Below, in pieces: positions 1,654 to 64,000 of a DNA stretch of 64,000 nucleotides. The first letter of the stretch is position 1. The number at the start of each line of letters is the position of its first letter. The position numbers and the translations under genes are program-made. The notes under the pieces were generated by a model that worked only from the letters and a program-made list of their open reading frames with translations, did not search any database and was not told the origin of the DNA. The stretch covers positions 140,368,001 to 140,432,000 of the forward strand of contig OZ024742.1 in NCBI GenBank assembly GCA_964016885.1, read 5' to 3'. The stretch is from Eledone cirrhosa. Its lineage: Eukaryota.

Positions 1654-2522
1654 ATATATTAGTAAAAAAAAAAGAAAATGCTGACAAATTTTTCCCAGTG
1701 AAAAATAGTTTAATTAGGAATAAGTATAAATTAGTAATAAGTATTAGTTAGTATTCAGTTTTAGTTTTAAGTTTTTACCGGTTACGCATTTCTTATGCTT
1801 TTCAAAAATAATTTTGAGATAGAGTGCTCGTGAATTTTGCTCTAATCTGTATGTATATATATACATGTATATATTTATTGATATGAAGTTATACTAGTGA
1901 CTTGAGTCACTGTTATAGCTTAGCTGCTATAATCAAATATATATTTGGCATCCCTTTCATAATTTGAGTTTTGTTTCTCGCGTTTATATGATCAGTTGGA
2001 AAGCGAATTCCTTAAACAAGCAGACATACCTGTGCATATTTACTACAATAAAAACTGAAAAACCCTTATTTTATTGGTTGTTTTTGTTATTATTGCTGTC
2101 TCTTGATTGCACATACAAAAACAGATATATTTAATCAATGAAAATAAAGTAAATTTGGTATTTTATCTTGAATTAACATTTCACTATGATTTGATTTGAT
2201 TTTCAAAATTCTTTTAATTTTCTCTCTCTCTCTTTCTCTCATGTTTCATAACATCTGTTGTCGCACTGTGATATAAATGGATTTCATTTAGATTCTATTA
2301 TTAATGTTCTTTGCAATTTGAAGTAAAATAATTTAACATAATTGTATTTGTTTAAGAAACAAATATAATTATATATGCCATGTGTATCTCAGTTTTTAGA
2401 ATAGGTACACTGTATCCCAGTGTATTGTAAAAGGTGACTGAAAGAGTAGGCATTAGGAAGGGTATCCTACTATGAAGCACTGCCTCAAACCCATGTCAGG
2501 TTAGAGGAGTAAATGTGTAATG

Positions 2523-3681: not shown

Positions 3682-4195
3682 TATTTCTAATGAAAGACAC
3701 TGCTTATGATTTCTAATTAATTTTGAAAATAATCAAGAATTTGAAGAAACTTGGTAATATAACTTTCTTATTAGTAAGCTGGAACATAACCTAGCAAAGC
3801 CTCTTACATAACCTTATAATGGTTTCTAATTTAAGGACAAAGCTAGTAATTCTGGAGGAGAGAAAAGTTTATTATATTGATCCCAGTACATGACTGGTAC
3901 TTTATTTTATCAGCCCTAGAAGTATGAAAAGCAAAGTTGATCTTGGTTGGATTTGATCTCAAAACATAAAGAACTGGAACAAATATTGCAATGGATTTGT
4001 TTGATGCCTTAACAACTGTCAATCCCAATTTTATAATGAAAAGTTTCATATAAACACATTAAAACAAAGTTTTATATTGTAAAACCAGGAGCAGTTTCAA
4101 GCAGTTTGGTATCAAAAGAGTTAAGTTTGTCTTCCTGAAATTACATAAAGCCATCAAAACCATTTGATAAAGTATAATCTAAAAAAAGATTTCAT

Positions 4196-4251
<56 letters not shown>

Positions 4252-4269
4252 CTAACTGTGCAATTTCGA

Positions 4270-4550
4270 TCAAAAATCTTGAACTCACTGTGAATTGTAA
4301 GATGTGGATGAAAGTTGTCTAAGATGGTGTGCAACAGTTTGAAGCTGACAACTAGATGATTGCATGGCAGTCTGTTACCATTGCTAAATTGTATCACCTA
4401 AGAGTAACAATGTGTTTCTTCATCCATATTCAGCTTGTACCTCCCTCCCAGGATCTGTGTATCACATATTGAACTTATATTGTATCTGCATGTTCATCAC
4501 AATCATGGTCAAGATATCTATTGGAAAAGGGTAATATCACCAACGAATCG
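4270..4550 (-). pseudogene. Possible decayed Penelope-like RT fragment
   Basis: Minus strand gives RFVGDITLF (RYVDD-like) and ILDNFHPHL/QFTV (cf. LNxFHPxLKFTxE) with frameshifts. Confidence 0.3.
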
Positions 4551-5069
4551 ATGAACAGCCAGTCAGTGTGTGTGTTTGTAGTTGATCAATACTTATGTCT
4601 TTCAAGTCTGGTTTATGTTCAATAATATATGTTTATTATCCATAAACATATTGTGTATGCTTTCTGTTATGAAACATACTGTTAGTGCCACTGCTAATTA
4701 ATCTTAGGTTGTCAAGTTCGCACTATATGCAAATGAGTATCTCCAGTTGGTTTCATGAGCAAAAAAACATATAAGCTTTAGTTTATTCCTGTCTCAGTAG
4801 CAAGTGAGTAAATGTCGTTGATGACAAATAAAATCCAGAAACACAGGTCTAACATTCTTACACGGTTACAGAGATAGCTGTGACGTGATCATAGCTTAAA
4901 ACATTCAAACCAGGACTCTTGTATATTTATTATATATATATATTGTGTATGTCATCATACATACTTCTATTATATATATACTTATATATATGTCATCATC
5001 ATCATCACCATCATCGTTTAACGTCCATTTTCCACGCTAGCATGAGTGTGTATTTATGTATACATGCAA

Positions 5070-5225
5070 TGGTCTTCTGCAGTCTCCATCTACCAAATTT
5101 CACTCATATGGTTTTGATCAACATAAGGCTATAGTAGAAGACATGTGCCCAAGATGCCATGCAGTGAGTGTGAACACAATACCATGTGGTTGTGAGGCCA
5201 ACTCCTTAACCACACAGTCATCTCT
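5070..5225 (-). mobile_element. Older tRNA-CORE-type SINE family 3
   Basis: Related copies at 7808-7975(+), 18905-19060(-), 46860-46995(+); shared AAATTTGGTAGAYRGA and CTTGRGCAAGTGTC motifs. Confidence 0.65.
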
Positions 5226-5568
5226 GTACCTATTTGTTTTATATATTTACTGTTTCTTTGCACACATTCTCTCTTGGTTGTGCCTACAGCAGTCAGCATT
5301 TATATATTTTATATATTTCAATATATTAGTTGATGGAACTCTTTTCCAAATACCAAACTTGCAAATGTCATTATTCAAGTATCAGCTTTTACACAACCTC
5401 TGTTTTTGCTCTTTGTTTAGAGAACTACTCCCCCTCCCATCATCCTCTTCCCCACGTCTGCTCCTCCTCGTCTCCCTTCCCCATTACAAATTGATACATC
5501 ATCATCATCATCCTTTGCTTATGACTCCACATTCAATCTTACTTCATTTAAAGAGAATTTAATCTCAT

Positions 5569-5821
5569 TTAACCCTTTTGATACCAAACCATGTATGCAA
5601 TGATCAGATATTAGCTCAAGATATGACTTGATTTTATAATTCAAAACTATTTATTTTTAAGTGCATAATGTCCCATCACAACTTTGTAAGAACCTTTGTT
5701 AAGTCATGTTCAAACACCAACTTAATAATGAGAAGGTTAAATATATTACTAAATCTCTTAAAATTATTTGAAAATACATAGGCAGTATTTTTCACTAGAA
5801 ATTTAGTTATGAAAGGGTTAA
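5569..5821. mobile_element. piggyBac-type MITE (TTAA TSD, CCCTTT termini)
   Basis: TTAA-CCCTTT...AAAGGG-TTAA; related copies at 56071-56329, 29115-29355, 30407-30635, 32130-32380, 32960-33600, 56739-56926. Confidence 0.75.
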
Positions 5822-5981
5822 TGATTCTTTAAAATAAGCCAAATTTTCTTTGGAAGGATAATTCTATGTTTTAGACAATTTTTCTGTGGCCAGATATGTT
5901 TCCTGATGTCAACCCATACCTTATTTCACATTTTAGATATGAAGATGCCTGTGATAAATTCACATACATGTGTATGTGTGA

Positions 5982-6064
<83 letters not shown>

Positions 6065-6277
6065 TAAAAAAATAATGAATAAAACAATGAAACAGTTCCT
6101 TATATTAAACAAAAAAAGTTCATTATTTAACGATCGTTTCTAAACTCTTGGTAGTTTTATCTACATATATATATATATATATATATATATGATTATGGGT
6201 AAATTCTTGATGGGTATCGAGAGGTGATCACTGTTAAAAAAGGAAACCAATATGTTAATAGAGTGTAAGCATTTTAA

Positions 6278-14079: not shown

Positions 14080-15378
14080 ACTACCGCCTGACCGTCGTGC
14101 CTTGTCCTAAGCCTCACTTGACTGCGCTGGAGCATTTGCTCTTTCGCTTTTTGTGGAAGGGACGCGCTCCGATGGTGAGGCGGTCCATCTGCTGTCAACA
14201 CCCACTACATGGAGATCTGGGCATGCCATGGCTAACAATGTGCAGACACGCGCTCAGGCTACGACATCTCCACCTCTTCCTCGACAGTGATCAGGTGTGG
14301 TCGCCGTTTGCTAGACGCGTCTTTCCCCAGCTCATCTCCTTGGCGGAGCTGCAGTCCTGGGTCAAACGAAGACCGAGAGGGAGCGCTTGGAGACTGGAAT
14401 GTCTTTAGGCGCTCACAACCCTCGACCAATCGGGCAATGTGATCGGTGGAAACTCCACCTTGGCGTTCTATAGAGGATTAGTGGAGGGGAAGAGCGACGA
14501 CGTACTTGAGGAAACTCTAGGCGTCGACGAAAATCAACTAGCCAATCTCTTTGGAAGAACTTTTGGGCCGGGGCCTATGGACAACTTCCAGAAATCCCTG
14601 GACTGGCAGTGCTACCGAGGAGCTTTGCCAGTTCGGGATAAACTCTACAGGCATGGAGGAGCCGTCAGCCGGGCATGCCCGAGATGCGCGCAGGGCGACG
14701 AAACCGTCCTGCATGCACTCGTCCAGTGTCTGAGCATTGCTGACTTGTGGGTTTATGTCAAACACCTGCTGTCGCGTGTAGAACGGATCCGACTATCAGC
14801 TGAGTCCATCGTAAGGATTGCTCCGCCCTCTTCCTTTAGGCAGACAGTTTTTATCTGTCTGGTGGCTATGGCGAAAGAGATAGTATGGTGGACGCGTCTG
14901 AAAGGGCTGAAGACGAGCACTTACCTCTTCGGTGATGCCCTGATTAACTTTTTTCCAATTTCATTTGAAAAGGAAAATCAGGGTAGAAAGGGAGGTGCTC
15001 TCTTCTCAGCTTTTTGTTGAAAGATGGGTGAGAGAGGCAAGAATGGCCCGAGTGAATGGACCTACTCTGAGTATATGGCTGTAAATTGAAGGTGGAAAAC
15101 TGGGAGAGGACAATTGCCCTCGGTGGTCAGGGTCACCGTGGCTTTTTTTAATGGGCTTTCTCCACGATGGCCCTCGGAAGTCTCCTCCCTATTGGGGAAT
15201 TTTTCATTGTTCTTTTATTACATCCTCTGTTTTTTTTTGTTTTTTTACATGCAGAAATGCCCATTTGTAGCGTCCTGTATTGTCCTGTACTGTCCTTAAT
15301 GTCTACTTTGTGTAAACCCTTGTGGTTAATAAAGAAAGCATTATTATTATTATCATTATTATTATTATTGTTATTATT
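14080..15378 (+). mobile_element. L1/Tx1-clade LINE, 3' part of ORF2 (zf-RVT) plus 3'UTR
   Basis: FRFLWKG..GLGMP, ALPVRDKL..CPRC..ETVLHALVQC (CCHC); highly similar to 45875-46395; terminus AATAAAGAAAGC(ATT)n; contains stops and a frameshift. Confidence 0.9.
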
Positions 15379-25982: not shown

Positions 25983-26940
25983 TCACTGGGTCATTTGCAG
26001 TTTGGACATATCTACTTGTTTTGTCACTTGTACTTCTGATGCCCTTACTTTTCCTTTGATCTTCACTTTCATTTTCCCACGCACAAGTTTGTGGTCAGTA
26101 CCACATTCTGCACTATGTATTACTCTTACAGAACAGATATCCTGGAGGTCTCTCTTCCTGGTGATGATATAATCCAAGATGTGTCTATGTTTCGATCTCG
26201 GGTGTATCCATGTTGCCTTGTGGATTTCCTTTTGCTGAAAAAAAGTGTTGCACATGACCAACTCAAACTCGGTGCATAATTGCATCCTAAAACACTTCAG
26301 ATATGGTTGTCTTTTCCCACATGTGCATTAAAATCTCCAGGAAGAAAAATCTTTTCTGAGTGTTATACATGATTGATTCCTGGCTACTGTCCATGTTAGG
26401 GGCATACACTTAAATGACAGTCATGAAACATCCCCTTGAAAGAGGAACTCTCAGATGCATAATTTGATCACCAATGCCTTATGGTTATTCCAGCTGCCTT
26501 GTGCCCTCTGTATGGACAGCAAAACCTACTCCTCTATTCTTTTTTTCTCCATTAAGTTTCCCTTTCAAGAAGAACATGTAGCCAGAATTCTCCTCTGATA
26601 GATGACCTTCACCACTAAAACTGGTTTCAGTGCATATATCAATAATATACCTGCTCAATTTTCTATCAACGATAGCAGTTCTGTATTCTGGATTTGTGGA
26701 TGATTCCCTGTCAAGAAGTGTTCTAGCATTCCATGTAGCAACATTCAATGTAATTCTATTCTTTTGAAAATTCTTCTGAAAATTACTATTCTTCTTGTTT
26801 TTCCTGCGGGTATGAACATCTGTCAGCCACAAGTAGCTGACCAGCTTGTGGTGGAACAGACAATGTTTGGGCCACCTTTTCTAGACCTCTCCAAAAATTT
26901 GTGTGAGCAGTGTTCTCCCTTGAAAGGGCTGCTCAATCAC
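25983..26940 (-). mobile_element. RTE (BovB-like lineage) 5' region: AP-endonuclease, decayed
   Basis: LNVATWNARTLLD, GVGFAV, NTFFQQKEIHKATWIHPRSKH..LDYII..CGTDHKLV. Confidence 0.85.
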
Positions 26941-34789: not shown

Positions 34790-35243
34790 CCTGCTACGCC
34801 TATAAGGACCCAGAACACTGGGGACAATGCAAAGACAAAACACAGAGTAGGGTTTACATTGACTAAAGGAAAAGGGACATCACTGAAGTGAAAACAGTAG
34901 GTCTAACAATAATAGAAATCTTAAAATATTAATGACAACAATTGAACTCTATAATGACTGTCAACCAGAACCAGTTCCCCAATAGGGTGAGGGACTGAAC
35001 TTTAGGGTAATTCCAGGGAGAACCCCATACAAAACTCAGGCTTACTCTGGCATGTCACAGACATCAAAAATGCCCTCTCCCAGTTTCCTTTCACCTGCTT
35101 AGAAAAGCATAGACAGAGAAGGCCAATTCAGCCTCATCAACCTTGCCATTCCCACCCATCTTTCATAAAACACATCAGACGGTAATGCCTCCCTCTCAAC
35201 ACTCACCCTTCTCTTCAAGTGAAACTTGAATAAGTTGACAATA
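34790..35243 (-). mobile_element. L1/Tx1-clade LINE 3' fragment
   Basis: VNLFKFHLKRRVSVEREAL..RWVGMARL homologous to 14940-15080. Confidence 0.75.
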
Positions 35244-35264
35244 TCAATAATAATAATAATAATA

Positions 35265-37467
35265 ACAATGTATAAAATTTTAACATCAGTCCTAACTGAA
35301 TATACATATGACCACCTGATAACAAATGATCTATTTCCCAATGAGCAGAAAGGGTGTAAACGAGGCTCATATGGCTGTAAGGATCAGCTTTTGGTTAACA
35401 AAATGATACTGGAACATTGTCATAATAGACACAAAAATCTATCAATTGCTTGGATAGATTATAAAAAAGCATTCGATAGTTTGCCACACAGTTGGATTGA
35501 AAAATGTTTAGAGATTTTCAAAATATCTCCCGTTGTCAGGAGGTTCCTGTCATTCAGTATGAAGACATGGAAAACGACACTCCTTTTGAATAATGAAAAA
35601 AAATCACTAGAAGCTGGAGAAGTTAATATTAATTGTAGAATTTTTCAGGGTGACTCTTTATCACCGCTTTTATTCTGCATCGCACTTATACCATTAAGTA
35701 AAATGCTCAATGAAACAAAACATGGATATAAAGTCTATGACAAAACCATTAATCACTTGTTCTACATGGATGACCTGAAACTATTTGCAAAAAATGATGA
35801 ACAATTGCAAGGGCTATTATCCACTGTGGAGCAGTTCAGTGATGACATTAAAATGGAGTTTGGACTAGATAAATGCGCCAAAGCAACGTTCACCAGAGGA
35901 AAGCTGCTGAAAAGTTCAGACATTAATCTTGATCGGGGGAATGTGATAAAAGAACTTGATCAAGAGGAAACTTACAAATATCTAGGTGTTTGTGAAGGAG
36001 ACGGAATCAAGCACTCGACAATGAGGTAAAGGATAAGGAAGGAATGTTACTGCAGAGTAAGAACAATCTTAAGAACGGAATTGAATGCAAGGAATAGGAT
36101 CGATGCCATAAACACGCTTGCCATACCAGTAGTAACCTACAGTTACAATGTCATCAACTGGTCAAGCACAGAGATCCGTAGGCTCGATACAAAAATTCGA
36201 AAATTCTTAACCATGCACAGAATGCATCACCCTAAGGCAGATACAGATAGAATATATCTCCCTAGGAAAGGAGGAGGACATGGGTTAATCCAGTTAGATA
36301 TTGCGTTGAAAAATGCAACAATTGGATTATCTACATATCTAAGGGAATCACATGATTGGATGATCAAACTCGTTTTGAAACACAAAAGCATCAAAAGATC
36401 ATACTCCATTACAAAAGATGCACAAAGATACAGTAATGGACTACAAATTTCAGAAGTCCCATTTACTGCTGAAATGGAAAACACAGAAAAAGCAAAGCAG
36501 GTAAAAGTAACTGCAAAGAAAGAACTGCTACAGAAACTGGCTAAGAAATGGCAAGAAAAGCCTCTGTATGGAAAATACCCAGAAAGAGCTAACAATCCTG
36601 ATATTGACAAAACTTTAACCCATCAGTGGTTGGCATCCTCTGGACTGAAATCGGAGACTGAAGGACTGATTATATCAGCACAAGATCAGTGTCTGCCAAC
36701 AAAAAATTACCAAGCCAACATAATAAAAAAATGGATGCAACCCATTATGCCGTGTATGTAAAAAACAATCAGAGACCATTGATCATATAATTTCAATGTG
36801 CAGTCCTATAGTTCCAACCGAATACCTAAACAGGCATGACAGAGCTGCATAATACATACATTGGATAATGTGTAAGCATTTTGACCTGCCCCATCAAAAG
36901 AATTGGTGGGAGCATCAACCACCTCCCATACTTGAAAAAGATCACATCTCAATCTTGTGGAACTTTAGATGCAAATAGACCTGATATAATACTGAAGGAC
37001 TTTAAAAAGAGGGTATGCCTGCTAATTGATATGTCCGTTCCAATAGACAAGAATGTATCTATAAAAACATTTGAAAAATTGAGCAAGTTTAAGGACCTGG
37101 AGATAGAAATTGGAAAAATGTGGAAATTGAGAACTAAAACAATACCAGTGGTTGTAGGCACTCTAGGAATGATACCTAAGGGGTCTAATGATTACTTATC
37201 GCAAATCCCAGGAAACCCGCGTATAGGAGAAATACAAAAGATAGTACTAATGGGAACTACCCATATACTAAGGAAGATTCTGTCAATATAAGTACATCAC
37301 AAGTCTAAATACCTAAAGATACATGTGTGTGTGTGTGTGTGTGTATGTTCTTTCTTGAACATGGCGAACCTTGTTGTCTCTTGAGGCCACTGGTTGTGAC
37401 TTCGTGATAACTCGTATGAACATAAAGCAAGATAAATGCAACTATAATAATAATAATAATAATAATA
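35265..37467 (+). mobile_element. R4/Dong-clade LINE #1, 5'-truncated (RT + CCHC + REL)
   Basis: EQKGC, WIDYKKAFDS, IFQGDSLSPLLF, HLFYMDDLKL, YKYLG, AQDQ, CRVC..ETIDHIISMC, RPDI..LIDM..K; a few stops/frameshifts; (TAA)n on both sides. Confidence 0.92.
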
Positions 37468-38140
37468 ACTGTGCAGGATCTGTGGAGAGAGAGAGGAGAC
37501 TGTGGCTCACATTGTATCCGAGTGTAAAGACCTAGCCCAGACTCACTATAAGGGCTGGAGACATGATGTGATGGGCAGGGTGATCCACTAGCACCTATGC
37601 AAAGTAAACAATTCACCACATTCTGAGAAGTGGTATGAGCATAAGCCAGAGTCGGTGATAGAAAACGATCAGGTGAAGGTGCTGTGGGATTTTAGGATAC
37701 AGACGGACAAAAAACTGGAACACAATAGACCTGACCTGGTGGTTTTGGACAAGAAAAAAAGATCGTGCCTGATTGTGGATGTGGCTTGCCCATTCGACAC
37801 GATAGTGCAAGAGAAGGAGAGGGAGAAATTTAACCGATACCAGGACTTAAAGTGGGAGTTAAAAAGGATTTGGAACTGCCATGAAGTCAAAGTGGTCCCG
37901 ATTGTCATAGGCGCACTAGGTACTATCTCAAGGAGTTTCCAGGGATGGTTAAAGAAAATTGGCCCCGCCACGCTTTTTGGAACGCTTCAAAAGGCATGCT
38001 TGCTGGGAACAGCAAGAACCCTCCGATACGTCCTGAATATCTGAGGTTGCAGGTAGTGGCTTGATATTCATTTCAACAAACTTTCCAGTTAACTAACATC
38101 AGTGACTGAGACTCAAAGAACAATAATAATAATAATAATA
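37468..38140 (+). mobile_element. R4/Dong-clade LINE #2, 3' end (CCHC + REL)
   Basis: LCRICG..ETVAHIVSEC..RHD; WDFRIQTD..NRPDLVV..IVDVACP..YQDL..VPIVIGALG; (TAA)n flanks. Confidence 0.9.
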
Positions 38141-43599: not shown

Positions 43600-46395
43600 T
43601 CTACTCATTAATATAGATGTGGTGGCCATCAGCGAGACCAGAATCTCTGATACACGGGCATTCGCACCCATTTTGGGCAGCTACGAGGTGTACACTACTT
43701 CAAGCCGTCTCGGATAGGGGGGGAGGGGCGTGTTGTTCCGTAGAAGTCTGGATCTCGAGATACGGGCCGTCTTCTTGGACCCAGAGCGTAAGTTGGTGGT
43801 ACTGGGCGTGACAAGCGAAGAAGGACAAGCTTTCAGGCTAGTAGCCGCCTATGCCCCAACAGGAGCAGGACGACCTAAATTCTTCCGGCGTCTGGAGACC
43901 TTTCTTGGAACGTCCCGCTCTCTAGTGTTAGTGGCCGACTGGAACGGGATCTTAGATGCACGCTGGGATTGTGTGGGATTAGCAGATAGGGGAGGAGGGT
44001 ATAAAAGCCTCACAAACCTACTCAGCCGTTTTCAACTGTCGGACACGTACTGATTGGATTTCCCGAATGTGCCAATGTGAATGTGGACTTGACAAACTGC
44101 ATCGGGTCATCCAGATCATATCTAGATAGAGTAGGGAAATAGATAGGTATAGCATAGGCTGCCCACAATTGAAGATAGTCAGCTACACGGACCACAAATT
44201 CGTGATCTGTGTGGTTGACTTAGATAAGCTTCATAGACAGAGACCCGGCTACTGGAAACTAAACGCGTCGTTAACAGCGCACAAAGCTTACAGAGACCGG
44301 ATTAGCGAATTAGTTAAGCGGGCGTTGACAACAACAAATGGTGGTTTGCCCTGAAAAGAGCGATTAGAATAGAATCCATTAGGTTTAGTAAAGCGCTAGT
44401 AACAGAGAAAAATAGAGCAGAAGGAAATCTAGTTAAGAAATTAGATGAGGTGCTTAGTAAAGGCATCGCGACCGACGTGCTTGCGGCGAAATTGGCTCTC
44501 GACCAATTTTTCAACGCTTAGCACGTAGGCTGCATTGTCAGAGCTAGGGTGCGTGCTCTCAGACACGAGGGGACAAAAGCCGTTCAATGGGCCCGGGTGG
44601 CGGAGGCGCGTCGTGGAAACAAAGCCACGATCCGATCTTTGGCAAACCACGACGGGCACATGATACTCGATCCTGGCCAGATGTGTGCGGCTTTTCAGCA
44701 GCACTTTGCTCAGCTGTTCGGGGGCAATGGCGAGCTGCATCGCGAATGGACTTCAGTGCCTACCTCTTGGTAGTGTTGCGAAAAGCCGATAACAGCTGCT
44801 TAAGTATGGGAGGCAATGATTAACTGCACAATGGGTAAATCGCCTGGTTTGGATGGTCTGCCCTAAGAATTTTACATACATATGCCAGACTTGTTCGAAG
44901 ACCTCTTGGCAGACATCTACTGCAACTGGCAGCAGAACGGGAGAATTCCCAGCTCTGTGAGCCGAGGAGCAGTGGTGTTACTGAGAAAGGATCCGAACAA
45001 GGGGGATAACAGAAAATTTCAGGCCCATAACTCTGCTAAACACTGACTTCAAGATTTTGGCTAAGGTGCTAGCAAAGAGGTTGGTGCTTGTCGTTGGTGG
45101 TCTGTGGGAGAGGCGCAAACATGCGCCATTCCAGACAGATCCATCCACGACAACCTCCACCTCATGCGATACATCGTAAAGAGGGTAGCTAGGGAACCTG
45201 GCATGGGTGGGTCTTTGATCAATTTAGATCAGTCAAAAGCTTTCGATAGGGTCGACCATCGTTATCTGGCTGCAGTCCTGAGAGCAGCTGGTTTTGGGCC
45301 TGTCTTCCGAGGCTGGATTGCTGCCATGCACAGCGACATCTGCTCTGCGGTGAGAGTGAACGGTCACCTTTGGAAACCGTTCAACATCATGTGCTCGATC
45401 CGCCAGGGATGTCCTCTCTCATCCTTGTTGTACGTATTGACTCTTGAGCCATTACTGCACAAACGGGAGACATTGAGGGGGATCCCTCATGAACTAGGAT
45501 GTGGAAGAACAGTGTCAGCTTATGCAGACGACATCACCGTAGTGGTGTCGAACATCAAACACATCGAGGCAATCGGCACCACACTAAGAGAATACGAGGT
45601 AGTGACAGGAGCAATGATCAACCAGGAAAAATCAGTAGGCCTGCAACTCAGCACCTGGAGAGGCAGGTCCATGCCGCCCAACAGCGTCGTCGGGCACTAG
45701 ACGGACGGACCGGTTAAATTACTAGGGGTCTGGTTTGGTCCGGACCTCCAGACGGACAAAAACTGGGAGGAGCTCACGAGCAAGGTGTTTTCTCTCACCC
45801 AGAAATGGGCCGAGAGGAAGCTATCCCTGAAAGGTCGAGTGGAGGTGGCGAATGCGTACATCACGTCCGTCATCTACTACTGCCTGACCGTCGTGCCTTG
45901 CCCTAAGCCTCGCCTGACTGCACAGGAGCGTTTGCTCTTTCGCTTTTTGTGGAAGGGTCGTGCTCCTATGGTCAGGCGGTCGATCTGCTGTCAACACCCA
46001 CTACACGGAGGGCTGGGCATGCCGTGGCTGATGATGCGCAGACATGCACTCAGGCTACGGCATCTCCACCTCTTCCTCGTCGGTGATCAGGTGTGGTCAC
46101 CCTTTGCTAGACACATGTTTCCCCGCTTATCTCCTTGGCGGAGCTGCAGTCCTGGGTCAAGCGTAGACTGAGAGGAAGCGCTTGGAGACTAGAATGTCTT
46201 CAGGCACTTACAGCCCTCGACCTGTCGAGCAATACAATCGCTGGAATCTCCACCTTGGCTTTCTACAGAGGATTAGTGGAAGGAAAGAGCGACGACATCC
46301 TTGGGGAGACTCTAGGCGTCGACGAAAACCAACTAGTCAATCTCTTCGGGAGAACTTTCGGGTCGGGGCCCATGGACAACTTCCAGAAATGCCTG
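43600..46395 (+). mobile_element. L1/Tx1-clade LINE ORF2 (APE + RT), truncated at both ends
   Basis: AAYAP, ADWN, TDH, GYWKLN, KSPGLDG, FRPITLLNTDFKILAKVLAKRL, LDQSKAFDRV, IRQGCPLS, AYADD, LLGV, GGLGMP; multiple stops and frameshifts. Confidence 0.92.
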
Positions 46396-50951: not shown

Positions 50952-51354
50952 TTTTACATTGCTATATAAAAAATATATTAACATACACATACATACAAAG
51001 ACATATAGAGACACACATATACACATGCCACATATACATAAATTTTTACATTGCTGTATACATAATATATATTAGCATACAATCACACACACACACACAC
51101 ACACACACACGCAACCTACCTTTTCTCTTTTCCCCACGTTTTCTTCTCTACCAACCCACCCACTCACCCACCATCTCTGTTTTTTCTCTCTCTCCCCTCT
51201 GTCCCCCTCTCTTTATCATTTGATAATTTTGTTGTTGTCATTGTGGTGGTTGTAGTTGTTTGTGATTATATTAGCCAACGTCGAAACTGAAGGATTTTCA
51301 TTCCCTCCTACGGTAAGAGCAGGATATCTTTTTCTCTCCCAATTAATGCAATAA

Positions 51355-52085
51355 TATTATAATAGTTAGAAACCAGTATTATTAATATTATTACTGTTAT
51401 AATAATTAGAAACCAGTATTATTAATGTCATTACTGTTATAATAGTTAGAAACCAATATTATTACTATTATAATAGATTAGAAACCAGTATTATTACTCT
51501 TACCACTATTATAATAGTTAGAAACCAGTATTATTAATATTATTACTGTTATAATAGTTAGAAACCAGTATTATTACTCTTACCACTATTATAATAGTTA
51601 GAAACCAGTATTATTATTCTTACCACAGTTAGAAACCAGTATTATTAATATTATTACTGCTATAATAGTTAGAAACCAGTATTATAACTCTTATCGCTAT
51701 TATAATAGTTAGAAACCAGTATTATTAATATGATTACTGTTATAATAGTTAGAAACCAGTATTATTATTCTTACCACTATTATAATAGTTAGAAAGCAGT
51801 ATTATTATTCTTACCACTATTATAATAGTTAGAAAGCAGTATTATTAATATTATTACTGTTATAATAGTTAGAAACCAGTATTATTATTCTTACCACTAT
51901 TATAATAGTTAGAAAGCAGTATTATTAATATTATTACTGTTATAATAGTTAGAAACCAGTATTATTATTCTTACCACTATTATAATAGTTAGAAACCAGT
52001 ATTATTATTCTTACCACTATTATAATAGTTAGAAACCAGTATTATTAATATTATTACTGTTATACTAGTTAGAAACTATTCATTA
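51355..52085. repeat. 40-bp minisatellite, ~19 copies, two unit variants
   Basis: TATAATAGTTAGAAACCAGTATTATT followed by either AATATTATTACTGT or ATTCTTACCACTAT. Confidence 0.95.
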
Positions 52086-52796: not shown

Positions 52797-52938
52797 GGTC
52801 ACAAGTGTAGTCTTTGTACCAGAGTTTTCAAGTCGCTGGCTGGACTAAAAAGTCACATTCGTTCAGCGCATCGGTAGGGGTTCTCCTACATGGATATAAA
52901 GTAGTGGCCGTACTCGAAAACGAGTTGGCAGCCACCAT
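52797..52938 (+). mobile_element. 3' end of an RTE (BovB-like) LINE with terminal C2H2 finger
   Basis: 52797-52877 encodes [26 protein letters not shown] (C-x2-C-x12-H-x4-H); short 3'UTR hairpin GTGGC..CTCG AAAA CGAG..GCCAC. Confidence 0.7.
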
Positions 52939-53392
52939 GTATATATATATATATAAATGTATATATATAAATATGTATGTATGTATGTATATATATATAT
53001 AAATGTATGTGTATATCTATATGTATGTTAATATATATATGTATGTATGTATATATATATGTATGTATATATGTATATATATATGTATGTATATATATAT
53101 ATATATATAAATGTATATATATGTATATATATATATATATATATAAATGTATATATATGTATATATATATATATATAAATGTATATATATGTATATATAT
53201 ATATATATAAATGTATATATACATGTATATATATATAAATGTATATATATGTATATATATATATATATATAAATGTATATATATATATATATATATATAT
53301 AAATGTATATATATGTATATATATATTAGAAAGTGAGGTTTTTTTTACAAAATGAAAAATAACCGAGGTGTCCTACACGAGTGAAAGTATAA

Positions 53393-53678
53393 AGAAAAAA
53401 AGATGAAATCGAAAATGCAACTGGAGTCTTATTTTTTTTTAAATATATATATTTATTTGGTTCCTTTACCGGTTTCGCAGTTCTTCTGCTTTTCAAAAGT
53501 AGAGTTGAGATGGAGGGTCTGTGGTTTTTCTCAGATGTGAGAAAAACCACAGACCCTCCATCTCAACTCTACTTTTGAAAGCAGAAGAACTGTGAAACCG
53601 GTAAAGGAACGAAATAAATATATATATTTTTTTAAAAAATAAGACTCCAGTTGCATTTTCGATTTCATCTTTTTTTCT
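53393..53678. repeat. ~286-bp near-perfect palindrome (Penelope inverted pLTR-like)
   Basis: Arms of ~141 bp around a GATG centre at 53534-53537; a handful of mismatches. Confidence 0.95.
53464..53499 (-). ncRNA. Minimal type I hammerhead ribozyme, U3-A8 variant
   Basis: CUU-UUGAAAA-GCAG aagaa CUGC-GAAA-C cg G-UA^-AAG: 3-bp stem I, 4-bp stem II, palindromic ACCGGU stem III, GUA triplet. Confidence 0.65.
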
Positions 53679-53701
53679 GTATATATATCATCATCATCAT
53701 C

Positions 53702-53806
<105 letters not shown>

Positions 53807-53863
53807 AATGTATGTATATATATATATATATATATATATAAATGTATGTATATTAAATGTATA

Positions 53864-53900
<37 letters not shown>

Positions 53901-53937
53901 GTATATATATGTATGTATATATATATATAAATGTATA

Positions 53938-53986
<49 letters not shown>

Positions 53987-54144
53987 GTATGTATATATAT
54001 ACTTTTATACTCTGCTATGTATTGAGTACCTTACTTACTGTGGTTACCTCCGATTCAACCCGGAATAACGTATATATATAGATATATATAAATGTATGTA
54101 TATATATATGTTTCTATATATATATATAAATGTATGTATATATG

Positions 54145-63287: not shown

Positions 63288-63310
63288 ATATAATATATAT
63301 ATATATATAT

Positions 63311-64000
63311 ATCATCATCATCATCATCTATCATCATCATTTTACGTCCGCTTTTCTCTGCTTGCAAGGGTGGGACGGGTCTTATTCAGCACAGCATCTC
63401 TCCACTCGTCACGGTCCCTCGTCATCTCCACCGTGAGCTTCAATGATCTGAGGTCTGTTCTCACCACCTCCGACAATGTTTTTCGTGGTCTACCTCTACC
63501 ACGTCTTCCTTCAACTGGCAATTCCTGGCACTTCTTCACCCATCGGTCATCCTCCATGCGCATCACATGTCCATACCACCTCAGTCTCCTCTCCCGTACA
63601 CTACATTCTATCCCTCTCAGACACAGTTTCTCTCTCAACACATTTATGCTGGGTCGTTCACGCACATTTACACTGCACATCCAATGGAGCATGCTTGCCT
63701 CATTTCTCTCCAGCCGTCGCATATTCTCTGCAGTTGCTGCCCATGTCTCACTACCGTGCAGCATCGCGCTCCTCACACAGGCATCATACAACCGGCCTTT
63801 CGTATGCAGGGAGAAACCCTTCTTCGTCAACAGAGGAAGCAGCTCCCTAAACTTCTTCCAACCCGTCCTTATTCTAGATACTATGGCCTCGGAACACCCT
63901 CCTCCCATGCTAATCTGATCTCCTAGGTACCGGAAGCTATCCACCACTTCTATAGCACCCTCTTGCATTTGAAAAATGTGTCTATCAATGCGACTTCTAC
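63311..64000 (-). mobile_element. RTE-clade LINE 3' part (runs off window), young
   Basis: Open 208-aa frame FRYLG..RIRTGWKKF..LHGSETW..RLRWYGHVMRM..GRPRKT..LASREKRT*, then (GAT)n tail. Confidence 0.92.

What the first reader, a model, noticed from the sequence alone, without database searches (positions are those of the whole stretch)
53393..53678. Long palindrome in (TA)n carrying a complete variant hammerhead ribozyme
Seen: a ~286-bp fold-back. The minus strand of the left arm (53499->53464) reads CUU UUGAAAA GCAG-aagaa-CUGC GAAA C-cg-G UA AAG. The right-arm copy has lost one core A and has a G.U pair in stem II. Established: the hammerhead core is CUGANGA..GAAA..UH with a C3-G8 tertiary pair, and U3-A8 is a compensatory variant. 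Penelope-like elements (PLEs) carry minimal hammerheads with a palindromic stem III thought to act as dimers, and often leave inverted pseudo-LTRs. Inference: this is a non-coding PLE/retrozyme-like unit, so a transcript from either strand contains a ribozyme motif plus its own antisense, which could switch cleavage off or make long dsRNA.
Basis: partly seen in the sequence, partly recalled or inferred. Interest (0 to 1): 0.72.

Follow-up and report, generated by a model that had tools for sequence, protein, structure and literature searches.

The report
Head-to-head Penelope retrotransposon ends with hammerhead
This palindrome is two short, back-to-back end pieces of a very abundant protein-coding Penelope-type jumping gene, each carrying a known variant of a predicted self-cutting RNA; the structure is known, but the copies' ends suggest that both arms were likely copied from one RNA into the two sides of a DNA break.

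Summary
The fold-back (140/147 identical) and the U3-A8 minimal hammerhead are real. It is not a stand-alone non-coding unit. It is a head-to-head pair of 5'-truncated ends of an autonomous Neptune/Nematis-type Penelope-like element (4.7 kb; RT, Zn-linker, GIY-YIG; 10,767 exact hammerhead copies; 183 with this junction), inserted in (TA)n. The right-arm defects are private decay. Inverted pLTRs, a one-sided tail and the U3-A8 core are published. Copy statistics constrain the mechanism. 62 of 64 readable junction copies pair one long and one short end. The arms share subfamily alleles in 55 of 60. The loop occurs in both orientations (38:24), unrelated to age. 56 of 94 arms start just below a TATA/Inr. 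This favours twin priming on one RNA with run-off at its 5' end over the published self-priming model. Junctions starting at the predicted cut site outnumber matched control positions (52 vs 17 vs 9), suggesting occasional cleavage in vivo. Against: a sister family mostly has A13C, no cleavage was tested, and no evidence supports an antisense switch. The scan already noted the long/short end pairing in other families of this genome.

The parts
52937..53326 (.). (TA)n-rich microsatellite, left target flank
   Evidence: sequence; both element ends merge into TA by TATA microhomology in nearly all copies
53320..53387 (-). Tail (+153..+220; +1 = C of CAGATG): present at one end only; in tandems it is the start of the next unit, ending ~20 nt before the ORF1 ATG
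53388..53533 (-). Left arm: pLTR +7..+152 of the Penelope-like element (long end, G-loop side), older 'TA' subfamily
53464..53499 (-). Minimal type I hammerhead, U3-A8 core, 4-bp stem II, 3-bp stem I; predicted cut between 53467 and 53466 (+73/+74)
   Evidence: 10,767 exact 35-nt copies; activity not tested
53468..53473 (-). Self-complementary hexamer of stem III, predicted to pair between two RNA copies
   Evidence: two-strand fold pairs the two hexamers; kept in sister family
53532..53539 (+). Junction octamer, 6 of 8 self-complementary, at the inferred RNA 5' end; occurs in both orientations relative to the tail
53532..53683 (+). Right arm: pLTR +1..+152 (short end, no tail)
53572..53606 (+). 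Decayed hammerhead copy (one core A lost, C>T in stem II)
   Evidence: fails descriptor
53680..53997 (.). (TA)n-rich microsatellite, right target flank
   Evidence: sequence

Best explanation
The palindrome is a dead insertion of two head-to-head end pieces of an autonomous, hammerhead-bearing Penelope-like retrotransposon, likely made when its enzyme cut a (TA)n tract and copied one RNA twice, from two fixed start sites into the two DNA ends. Shown: the parent element, copy numbers, fixed ends at +152 and +220, one-long-one-short pairing, shared alleles, both loop orientations, and the pile-up of 5' ends at +1..+17. Inferred: transcription starts at +2 (TATAAAA at -29, CCAGAT initiator); a dimeric RT-endonuclease starts cDNA at +152 on one target end and at +220 on the other; both run off the RNA 5' end near +1, like strong-stop DNA; the two cDNA 3' ends anneal through the 6-of-8 octamer and repair keeps either strand. 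Longer insertions would come from the downstream pLTR copy of a read-through RNA. The hammerhead is predicted to cut only a minority of RNAs, as a dimer or with protein help; this copy has no function of its own.
For: Parent: same sequence continues into an RT + CX4CxxC linker + GIY-YIG frame (Pfam GIY-YIG above cut-off, RVT_1 E 4.9e-6 below cut-off). Direct tandems ~4.68 kb apart in L096, L097, L105 (about 4.98 kb in L100). Ends: of 70 junction copies, SL 38, LS 24, LL 1, SS 1, 6 with a broken arm; mixed 62/64, p 1e-16. In 62 loci chosen only for an intact hammerhead, 28 of 32 inverted pairs are long+short, none LL or SS, 4 unreadable (read by eye). One source: subfamily alleles agree between arms in 55 of 60 typed copies, 34% expected; both arms start near +1 or downstream in 24 pairs, both upstream in 7, mixed in 1. 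Two independent cDNAs: LS vs SL does not differ from 1:1 (p 0.098) and LS copies are not older (1.75 vs 1.90 differences; 5/20 vs 9/31 with none). In 17 longer inverted insertions the tailed arm reaches further upstream in 7, the other arm in 9, tie 1. Run-off: 56 of 94 arms start at -5..+17; a sister family (48-59% protein identity) has CATAAAA at the same distance, the same 5' boundary and the same fold-backs. Cut footprint: junctions starting at +74 number 52, against 17 at +78 and 9 at +47 with matched patterns (p 1.5e-5 and 9e-9); +74 is the top position in 11 of 48 (TA)n-joined 5' ends. Literature: an Anolis PLE protein cuts and extends both strands from two adjacent RT start sites and is predicted to be a dimer (PMC11167929).
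Against: All mechanism steps are inferred from DNA footprints. The start site, cleavage and dimer are untested. Loop flipping could also come from resolution of a hairpin or cruciform during insertion, which these counts cannot separate from two cDNAs. 5 of 60 copies have discordant arms (two, L183/L184, are duplicates). Allele sharing could partly be gene conversion. The cut-site peak has a confounder: a TA-microhomology site at +109..+111 also collects about 21 of 47 junction-like hits (read by eye, includes internal deletions), and +78/+79 hold 19 of 64 loci. The sister family, sampled by its flank, has A13C in 18 of 20 parsed motifs (10 of 30 not parsed), so a strict catalytic core is not conserved across families. 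Loop-closing-pair variants include many mismatches. In Anolis, hammerhead mutants did not affect insertion and no RNA reads ended at the cut site (PMC11167929). Here both RT start sites coincide with TA microhomology, unlike the Anolis case.
Confidence: 0.65

Rival explanations
1. Self-priming fold-back: one cDNA is made from the tail end, its 3' end snaps back at the quasi-palindrome and copies itself; the short end and the loop flip arise when the endonuclease or host repair resolves the hairpin (the kind of model proposed in PMC3846280 and, for the tail, PMC8557442).
For: Explains identical alleles in both arms (55/60), the lack of LL/SS, and the mild excess of SL (38:24). Junctions often sit at short palindromes or microhomologies.
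Against: Simple fold-back gives only SL and always makes the tailed arm the longer one. LS is 24 of 62 and is found in undiverged copies. The tailless arm is the longer in 9 of 17 long insertions, by up to ~3.5 kb (L099). The 5 discordant copies need a second template or conversion.
Confidence: 0.22
2. The short palindrome is itself a non-autonomous replicating unit: a palindromic master RNA is copied whole, and its antisense arm controls the ribozyme.
For: 183 copies share the exact junction; 13 of 22 inverted pairs among the first 100 hammerhead hits are under 160 bp apart.
Against: The junction occurs in three subfamilies in both orientations, so it arose at least six times. Only 2 arm variants are shared by 3 or more of 70 loci. 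Unselected palindromes have many different junctions. The unit lacks the TATA box, is not in tandem arrays, and shows no A>G editing footprint in 140 arms.
Confidence: 0.08
3. The hammerhead-shaped motif no longer cuts; it serves as an RNA dimerisation or protein-binding signal through its palindromic hexamer, and the +74 excess reflects RT pausing or microhomology.
For: A sister family with at least 5,569 copies keeps U3/A8, compensated stems and the hexamer but has A13C in 18 of 20. Stem I is only 3-4 bp and the monomer does not fold into the active form by minimum free energy.
Against: The main family has a complete core, and the junction excess falls on the exact predicted cut. Strict long/short pairing is easier to explain with one RNA than with two equivalent ones.
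Confidence: 0.2
4. Assembly or sequencing fold-back chimera.
For: Palindromes next to long (TA)n are a known trouble spot (general knowledge).
Against: Unequal arms with private mutations, 183 copies of the junction, fixed ends, and a contig in a public run spanning the junction.
Confidence: 0.01

Closest known systems
Neptune/Nematis clades of endonuclease-bearing Penelope-like elements (Craig et al. 2021, PMC8557442; Introduction and passages read)
   Same: RT with DKG motif, CX2-5CxxC linker, C-terminal GIY-YIG, partial tandems, inverted 5'-truncated copy, tail at one end only, (TA)n targets, hammerhead in the pLTR.
   Different: Tail about 68 nt rather than 30-40; a 400-codon ORF1 overlaps the RT frame in -1 at a U UUU UUA heptamer; clade not placed on a tree with named references.
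U3-A8 minimal hammerheads of Schistosoma mansoni Cercyon PLEs (Cervera and de la Pena 2014, PMC4209133; parts 1-2 of 4 read)
   Same: U3-A8 core, minimal type I form, predicted dimer; that paper also reports opposite-strand pairs 100-700 bp apart.
   Different: Stem II is 4 bp without the extra base before it (theirs 7-8 bp); stem III keeps a palindromic hexamer, as in their Drosophila, rotifer and shrimp variants.
Poseidon PAc of Anolis (Frangieh et al. 2024, PMC11167929; parts 1-2 of 4 read)
   Same: Two adjacent RT start sites defining the tail, AT-rich targets, both strands extended, hammerhead upstream of the start sites.
   Different: Different clade; here the start sites lie in the 5' UTR and share TA microhomology with the target; strict one-each pairing of the two sites and a cut-site footprint were not reported in the parts read.
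Adineta vaga Penelope elements (Arkhipova et al. 2013, PMC3846280; passages read)
   Same: Head-to-head inverted pLTRs, palindromes at the junction, optional tail on one arm, TATA plus Inr in the pLTR.
   Different: They read the junctions as self-priming on an antisense template; the counts here favour two cDNAs from a sense RNA.
Metazoan non-LTR retrozymes (PMC7229834, passages read; bioRxiv 10.64898/2026.07.22.740005, part 1 of 5 read)
   Same: Type I hammerhead in a dispersed repeat related to PLE pLTRs.
   Different: Retrozymes are non-coding head-to-tail tandems; this is an inverted pair cut from a coding element.

Membership tests
EN+ Penelope-like element | RT followed by C-terminal GIY-YIG endonuclease | tested here: met
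   775-aa frame contiguous with the pLTR in L096; Pfam GIY-YIG 27.6 bits (cut-off 22.6), RVT_1 26.8 bits (cut-off 29.6); 714 relatives at E<=1e-30
EN+ Penelope-like element | pLTRs from partial tandems, inverted 5'-truncated copy, one-sided tail | tested here: met
EN+ Penelope-like element | Hammerhead motif in the pLTR | tested here: met
Neptune/Nematis | CX2-5CxxC linker upstream of GIY-YIG; CCHH in the endonuclease | tested here: met
Neptune versus Nematis | RT phylogeny with named references | not tested
   no reference sequences held; Neptune is the likelier label from the full-length linker and (TA)n targeting described in PMC8557442
Naiad/Chlamys | N-terminal endonuclease | tested here: not met
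   GIY-YIG at residues 682-772 of 775
Minimal type I hammerhead | Core, stem II, palindromic stem III, short stem I | tested here: met
   left arm passes the descriptor, right arm fails
Minimal type I hammerhead | Covariation across families | tested here: inconclusive
   sister family has compensated stem II (G-C to U-A) and stem I (C-G to U-A) but A13C in 18 of 20; no C3-G8 relative with this stem found
Minimal type I hammerhead | Self-cleavage | not testable with these tools
   only an indirect genomic footprint at +74
Non-LTR retrozyme | Non-coding unit in head-to-tail tandem arrays | tested here: not met
   among the first 100 hammerhead hits, 22 neighbouring pairs are head-to-head and only 2 are direct (3.1 and 4.9 kb apart); unit codes for protein
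Non-LTR retrozyme | Circular RNA | not testable with these tools
   no RNA run held

The most novel reading that the evidence does not exclude
This family's 10,000+ copies record the Penelope insertion cycle in vivo: a dimeric enzyme primes one RNA at two fixed sites, one per DNA end; both cDNAs run off the capped 5' end and anneal through a quasi-palindrome resolved either way; about one template in a hundred was first cut by the U3-A8 hammerhead; and the RT is made by a -1 ribosomal frameshift. That would replace the self-priming account of head-to-head PLE insertions and give genomic evidence that a minimal PLE hammerhead cuts in the germline.
Probability: 0.4. Interest if true: 0.62.

Novelty: new member of a known kind. 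Interest (0 to 1): 0.36.

Why it matters
The locus itself is an ordinary dead insertion, and every structural feature (inverted pLTR, one-sided tail, U3-A8 hammerhead, (TA)n target) is in print. Its value is as an entry to a young, very large family whose ends bear on two open questions named in the papers read: how tandem/inverted PLE structures and the tail form, and whether PLE hammerheads cut in vivo. The counts give sharp predictions (one long and one short end from one RNA; a 5' end at +2; a minor product at +74) for the in vitro system that now exists.

Tried and rejected
Rfam at E<=10 found no hammerhead model match. No RNA holder listed for the element: no evidence either way on expression. 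Contig depth was not used as copy number. A search for relatives with a C3-G8 core and the same stem found none. Double changes in the stem III hexamer gave 23 hits against 11 control hits; 6 keep a palindrome, about what independent transitions would give, so not used as covariation. The alignment was built mostly from loci selected by a core pattern, so its invariant core is circular and was not used; the flank-selected sample replaced it and showed A13C. First controls for the cut site (185, 123, 130 hits) mixed junctions with small indels and were superseded. A DNA search with the sister-family flank found nothing (AT-rich words skipped). A MITE or fold-back DNA transposon reading was rejected: the ends are unequal and the sequence belongs to an RT element. 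RNA editing footprint: none in 140 arms. A pseudoknot after the slippery site was not established; only a weak hairpin folds. Rows left out of the 94-arm count: L233, L249 and the second hit in L238 (lost to the identity filter; all three continue upstream of +1) and two tail-only fragments (L225, L246). Literature searches with no hit for a cut-site footprint or a slippery frameshift in PLEs; some searches returned only the papers cited. The library lacks most subscription papers, and no supplements were read; they may hold such observations.

Full report
Observation. The fold-back is there: 140 of 147 aligned positions match, the centre is GATG at 53534-53537, and both ends run into (TA)n. 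The left arm has about 65 extra bases with no partner, reaching to about 53320. The minus-strand motif at 53499-53464 is the only hit in the window for a minimal-hammerhead descriptor, and 60 random 64-kb sequences gave none. Rfam does not detect it.

What it belongs to. The genome is 3.0 Gb and microsatellite-rich; earlier AI notes call it octopus-type, which I did not test. The 35-nt hammerhead occurs 10,767 times exactly, control 0, and the window's junction 183 times. Copies that do not fold back continue upstream through a 3' UTR into an RT and GIY-YIG frame. Sixteen 9.9-kb loci show a unit of about 4.68 kb, direct partial tandems and inverted copies. [quoted passage not shown] Copies of the window's own subfamily reach the RT frame (L033, L041, L051, L058). 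Numbering from the C of CAGATG as +1, the hammerhead spans +41..+76, the predicted cut is +73/+74, the short end is +152, the long end +220 and the ATG +242. The window holds a long arm (+7..+220) and a short arm (+1..+152), head to head. Its subfamily is the oldest of three (1.8% versus 0.9% and 0.4% divergence). The right-arm changes are private, and copies mutate in the hammerhead as fast as in the flanks.

How the two ends pair. I examined 70 of the 183 junction copies (the first 30 returned and 40 more from the listing). There are 38 with the tail on the C-loop side, 24 with it on the G-loop side (the window's form), 1 long-long, 1 short-short and 6 with a broken arm. In 62 loci picked only for an intact hammerhead, 28 of 32 inverted pairs are long plus short and 4 are unreadable (by eye). 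The arms share subfamily alleles in 55 of 60 typed copies against 34% by chance. The two loop orientations do not differ from 1:1 (p 0.098) or in age. In 17 longer inverted insertions the tailed arm reaches further in 7 and the other in 9. A single cDNA folding back on itself predicts one orientation and a longer tailed arm; two cDNAs from one RNA predict what is seen. The octamer at +1 is 6-of-8 self-complementary, so two cDNA ends could anneal there and be repaired to either strand. This step is inference.

Why the arms are so short. Of 94 arms, 56 start at -5..+17, 26 run further upstream, 5 start at 18-66, 6 at 67-88 and 1 beyond (dropped rows are listed under Tried and rejected). TATAAAA lies at -29 and the boundary reads CCAGAT. 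A sister family, 48-59% identical in protein, has CATAAAA at the same distance, the same boundary and the same fold-backs. I infer a transcription start at +2 and run-off cDNAs. PMC3846280 (passages) notes TATA and Inr in rotifer pLTRs, whereas PMC2377424 (passages) found a TATA-less internal promoter in Drosophila Penelope.

Does the hammerhead cut? With matched patterns (two non-native bases, then a start at AA), junctions number 52 at +74, 17 at +78 and 9 at +47. Among 48 (TA)n-joined 5' ends from the first 100 rows, +74 is the top position with 11. Against this, a TA-microhomology site near +110 collects a peak of similar size, +78/+79 are also raised, and the sister family has compensated stems I and II and the hexamer but A13C in 18 of 20 parsed motifs. 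Of 68 motifs changed at both sides of the loop-closing pair, many are mismatched. I rate occasional in vivo cleavage as likely but not shown. PMC11167929 found the Anolis ribozyme protein-assisted, dispensable for insertion in vitro, and without RNA reads ending at the cut. A report that such minimal variants cleave as dimers (Lunse et al. 2017) is recalled only, not read.

The PLE link and the ribozyme parse stand. A separate non-coding unit with an antisense switch is not supported: the junction arose in three subfamilies in both orientations, unselected palindromes have varied junctions, the copy lacks the TATA box, and 140 arms show no editing footprint. A read-through transcript would form a long hairpin, but nothing shows that one is made.

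Comparison with what is known. PMC4209133 (parts 1-2 of 4) reports the U3-A8 core in PLEs and opposite-strand pairs 100-700 bp apart. PMC8557442 describes the inverted truncated copy and the one-sided tail. PMC3846280 describes head-to-head pLTRs and proposes self-priming. PMC11167929 (parts 1-2 of 4) shows two start sites and extension of both strands. The locus is therefore a new member of a known kind. I found no paper giving the strict pairing, the flip of the loop, a cut-site footprint or a slippery frameshift, but the library is partial and no supplements were read. Earlier notes of this scan report the long/short pairing for non-coding families in this genome; my twin-priming reading was recorded before seeing them, and they are not independent evidence.

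Verdict. A real, dead, head-to-head end pair of an autonomous Neptune/Nematis-type element. Identity about 0.97; twin priming on one RNA with run-off about 0.65; interest 0.36.

Noticed in passing
L096:2759-3958 and 3871-6195; L066-L095: The element has a 400-codon ORF1 (no Pfam match) overlapping the RT frame in -1 at a U UUU UUA heptamer; 18 of 19 copies that matched the site pattern have the six-T form. All 120 listed homologues are at most 803 aa and those inspected start at the same place, so the split may be clade-wide. A programmed -1 frameshift is likely; PMC8557442's Fig. 1 legend mentions a frameshifted ORF1 in some PLEs without naming the clade in the text I read.
   Followed up: partly
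window 1661-1849 (-), hammerhead 1773-1808: Solo copy of a sister PLE family (at least 5,569 copies) with compensated stems I and II; the family mostly has A13C, and this copy has U at that position.
   Followed up: partly
L105, 420 bases upstream of +1: Putative promoter region holds CCAAT (-375, -78), an E2F-like site (-107), CHR-like hexamers (-190, -134) and an E-box (-267), resembling cell-cycle promoters (motifs recalled; no chance control).
   Followed up: no
window 52797-52940: A different ~140-bp repeat end between (TA)n tracts; the same sequence lies next to this family in L037 and L057, likely another (TA)n-targeting element.
   Followed up: no
L023, L025: Tandem 54-bp repeats of the 5' part of the pLTR (about +7..+60, cutting through the hammerhead) at the junction.
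   Followed up: no
window 35223-38044 (+) and 45065-46171 (+), 14409-15020 (+), 63289-63926, 26485-26880 (-): Broken non-LTR retrotransposon pieces; two frames match RVT_1.
   Followed up: partly
window 51349-52063: 40-bp AT-rich minisatellite of about 17-19 copies.
   Followed up: no
L231: Junction region shows several apparent A>G changes on one strand; possibly an edited copy, not tested.
   Followed up: no
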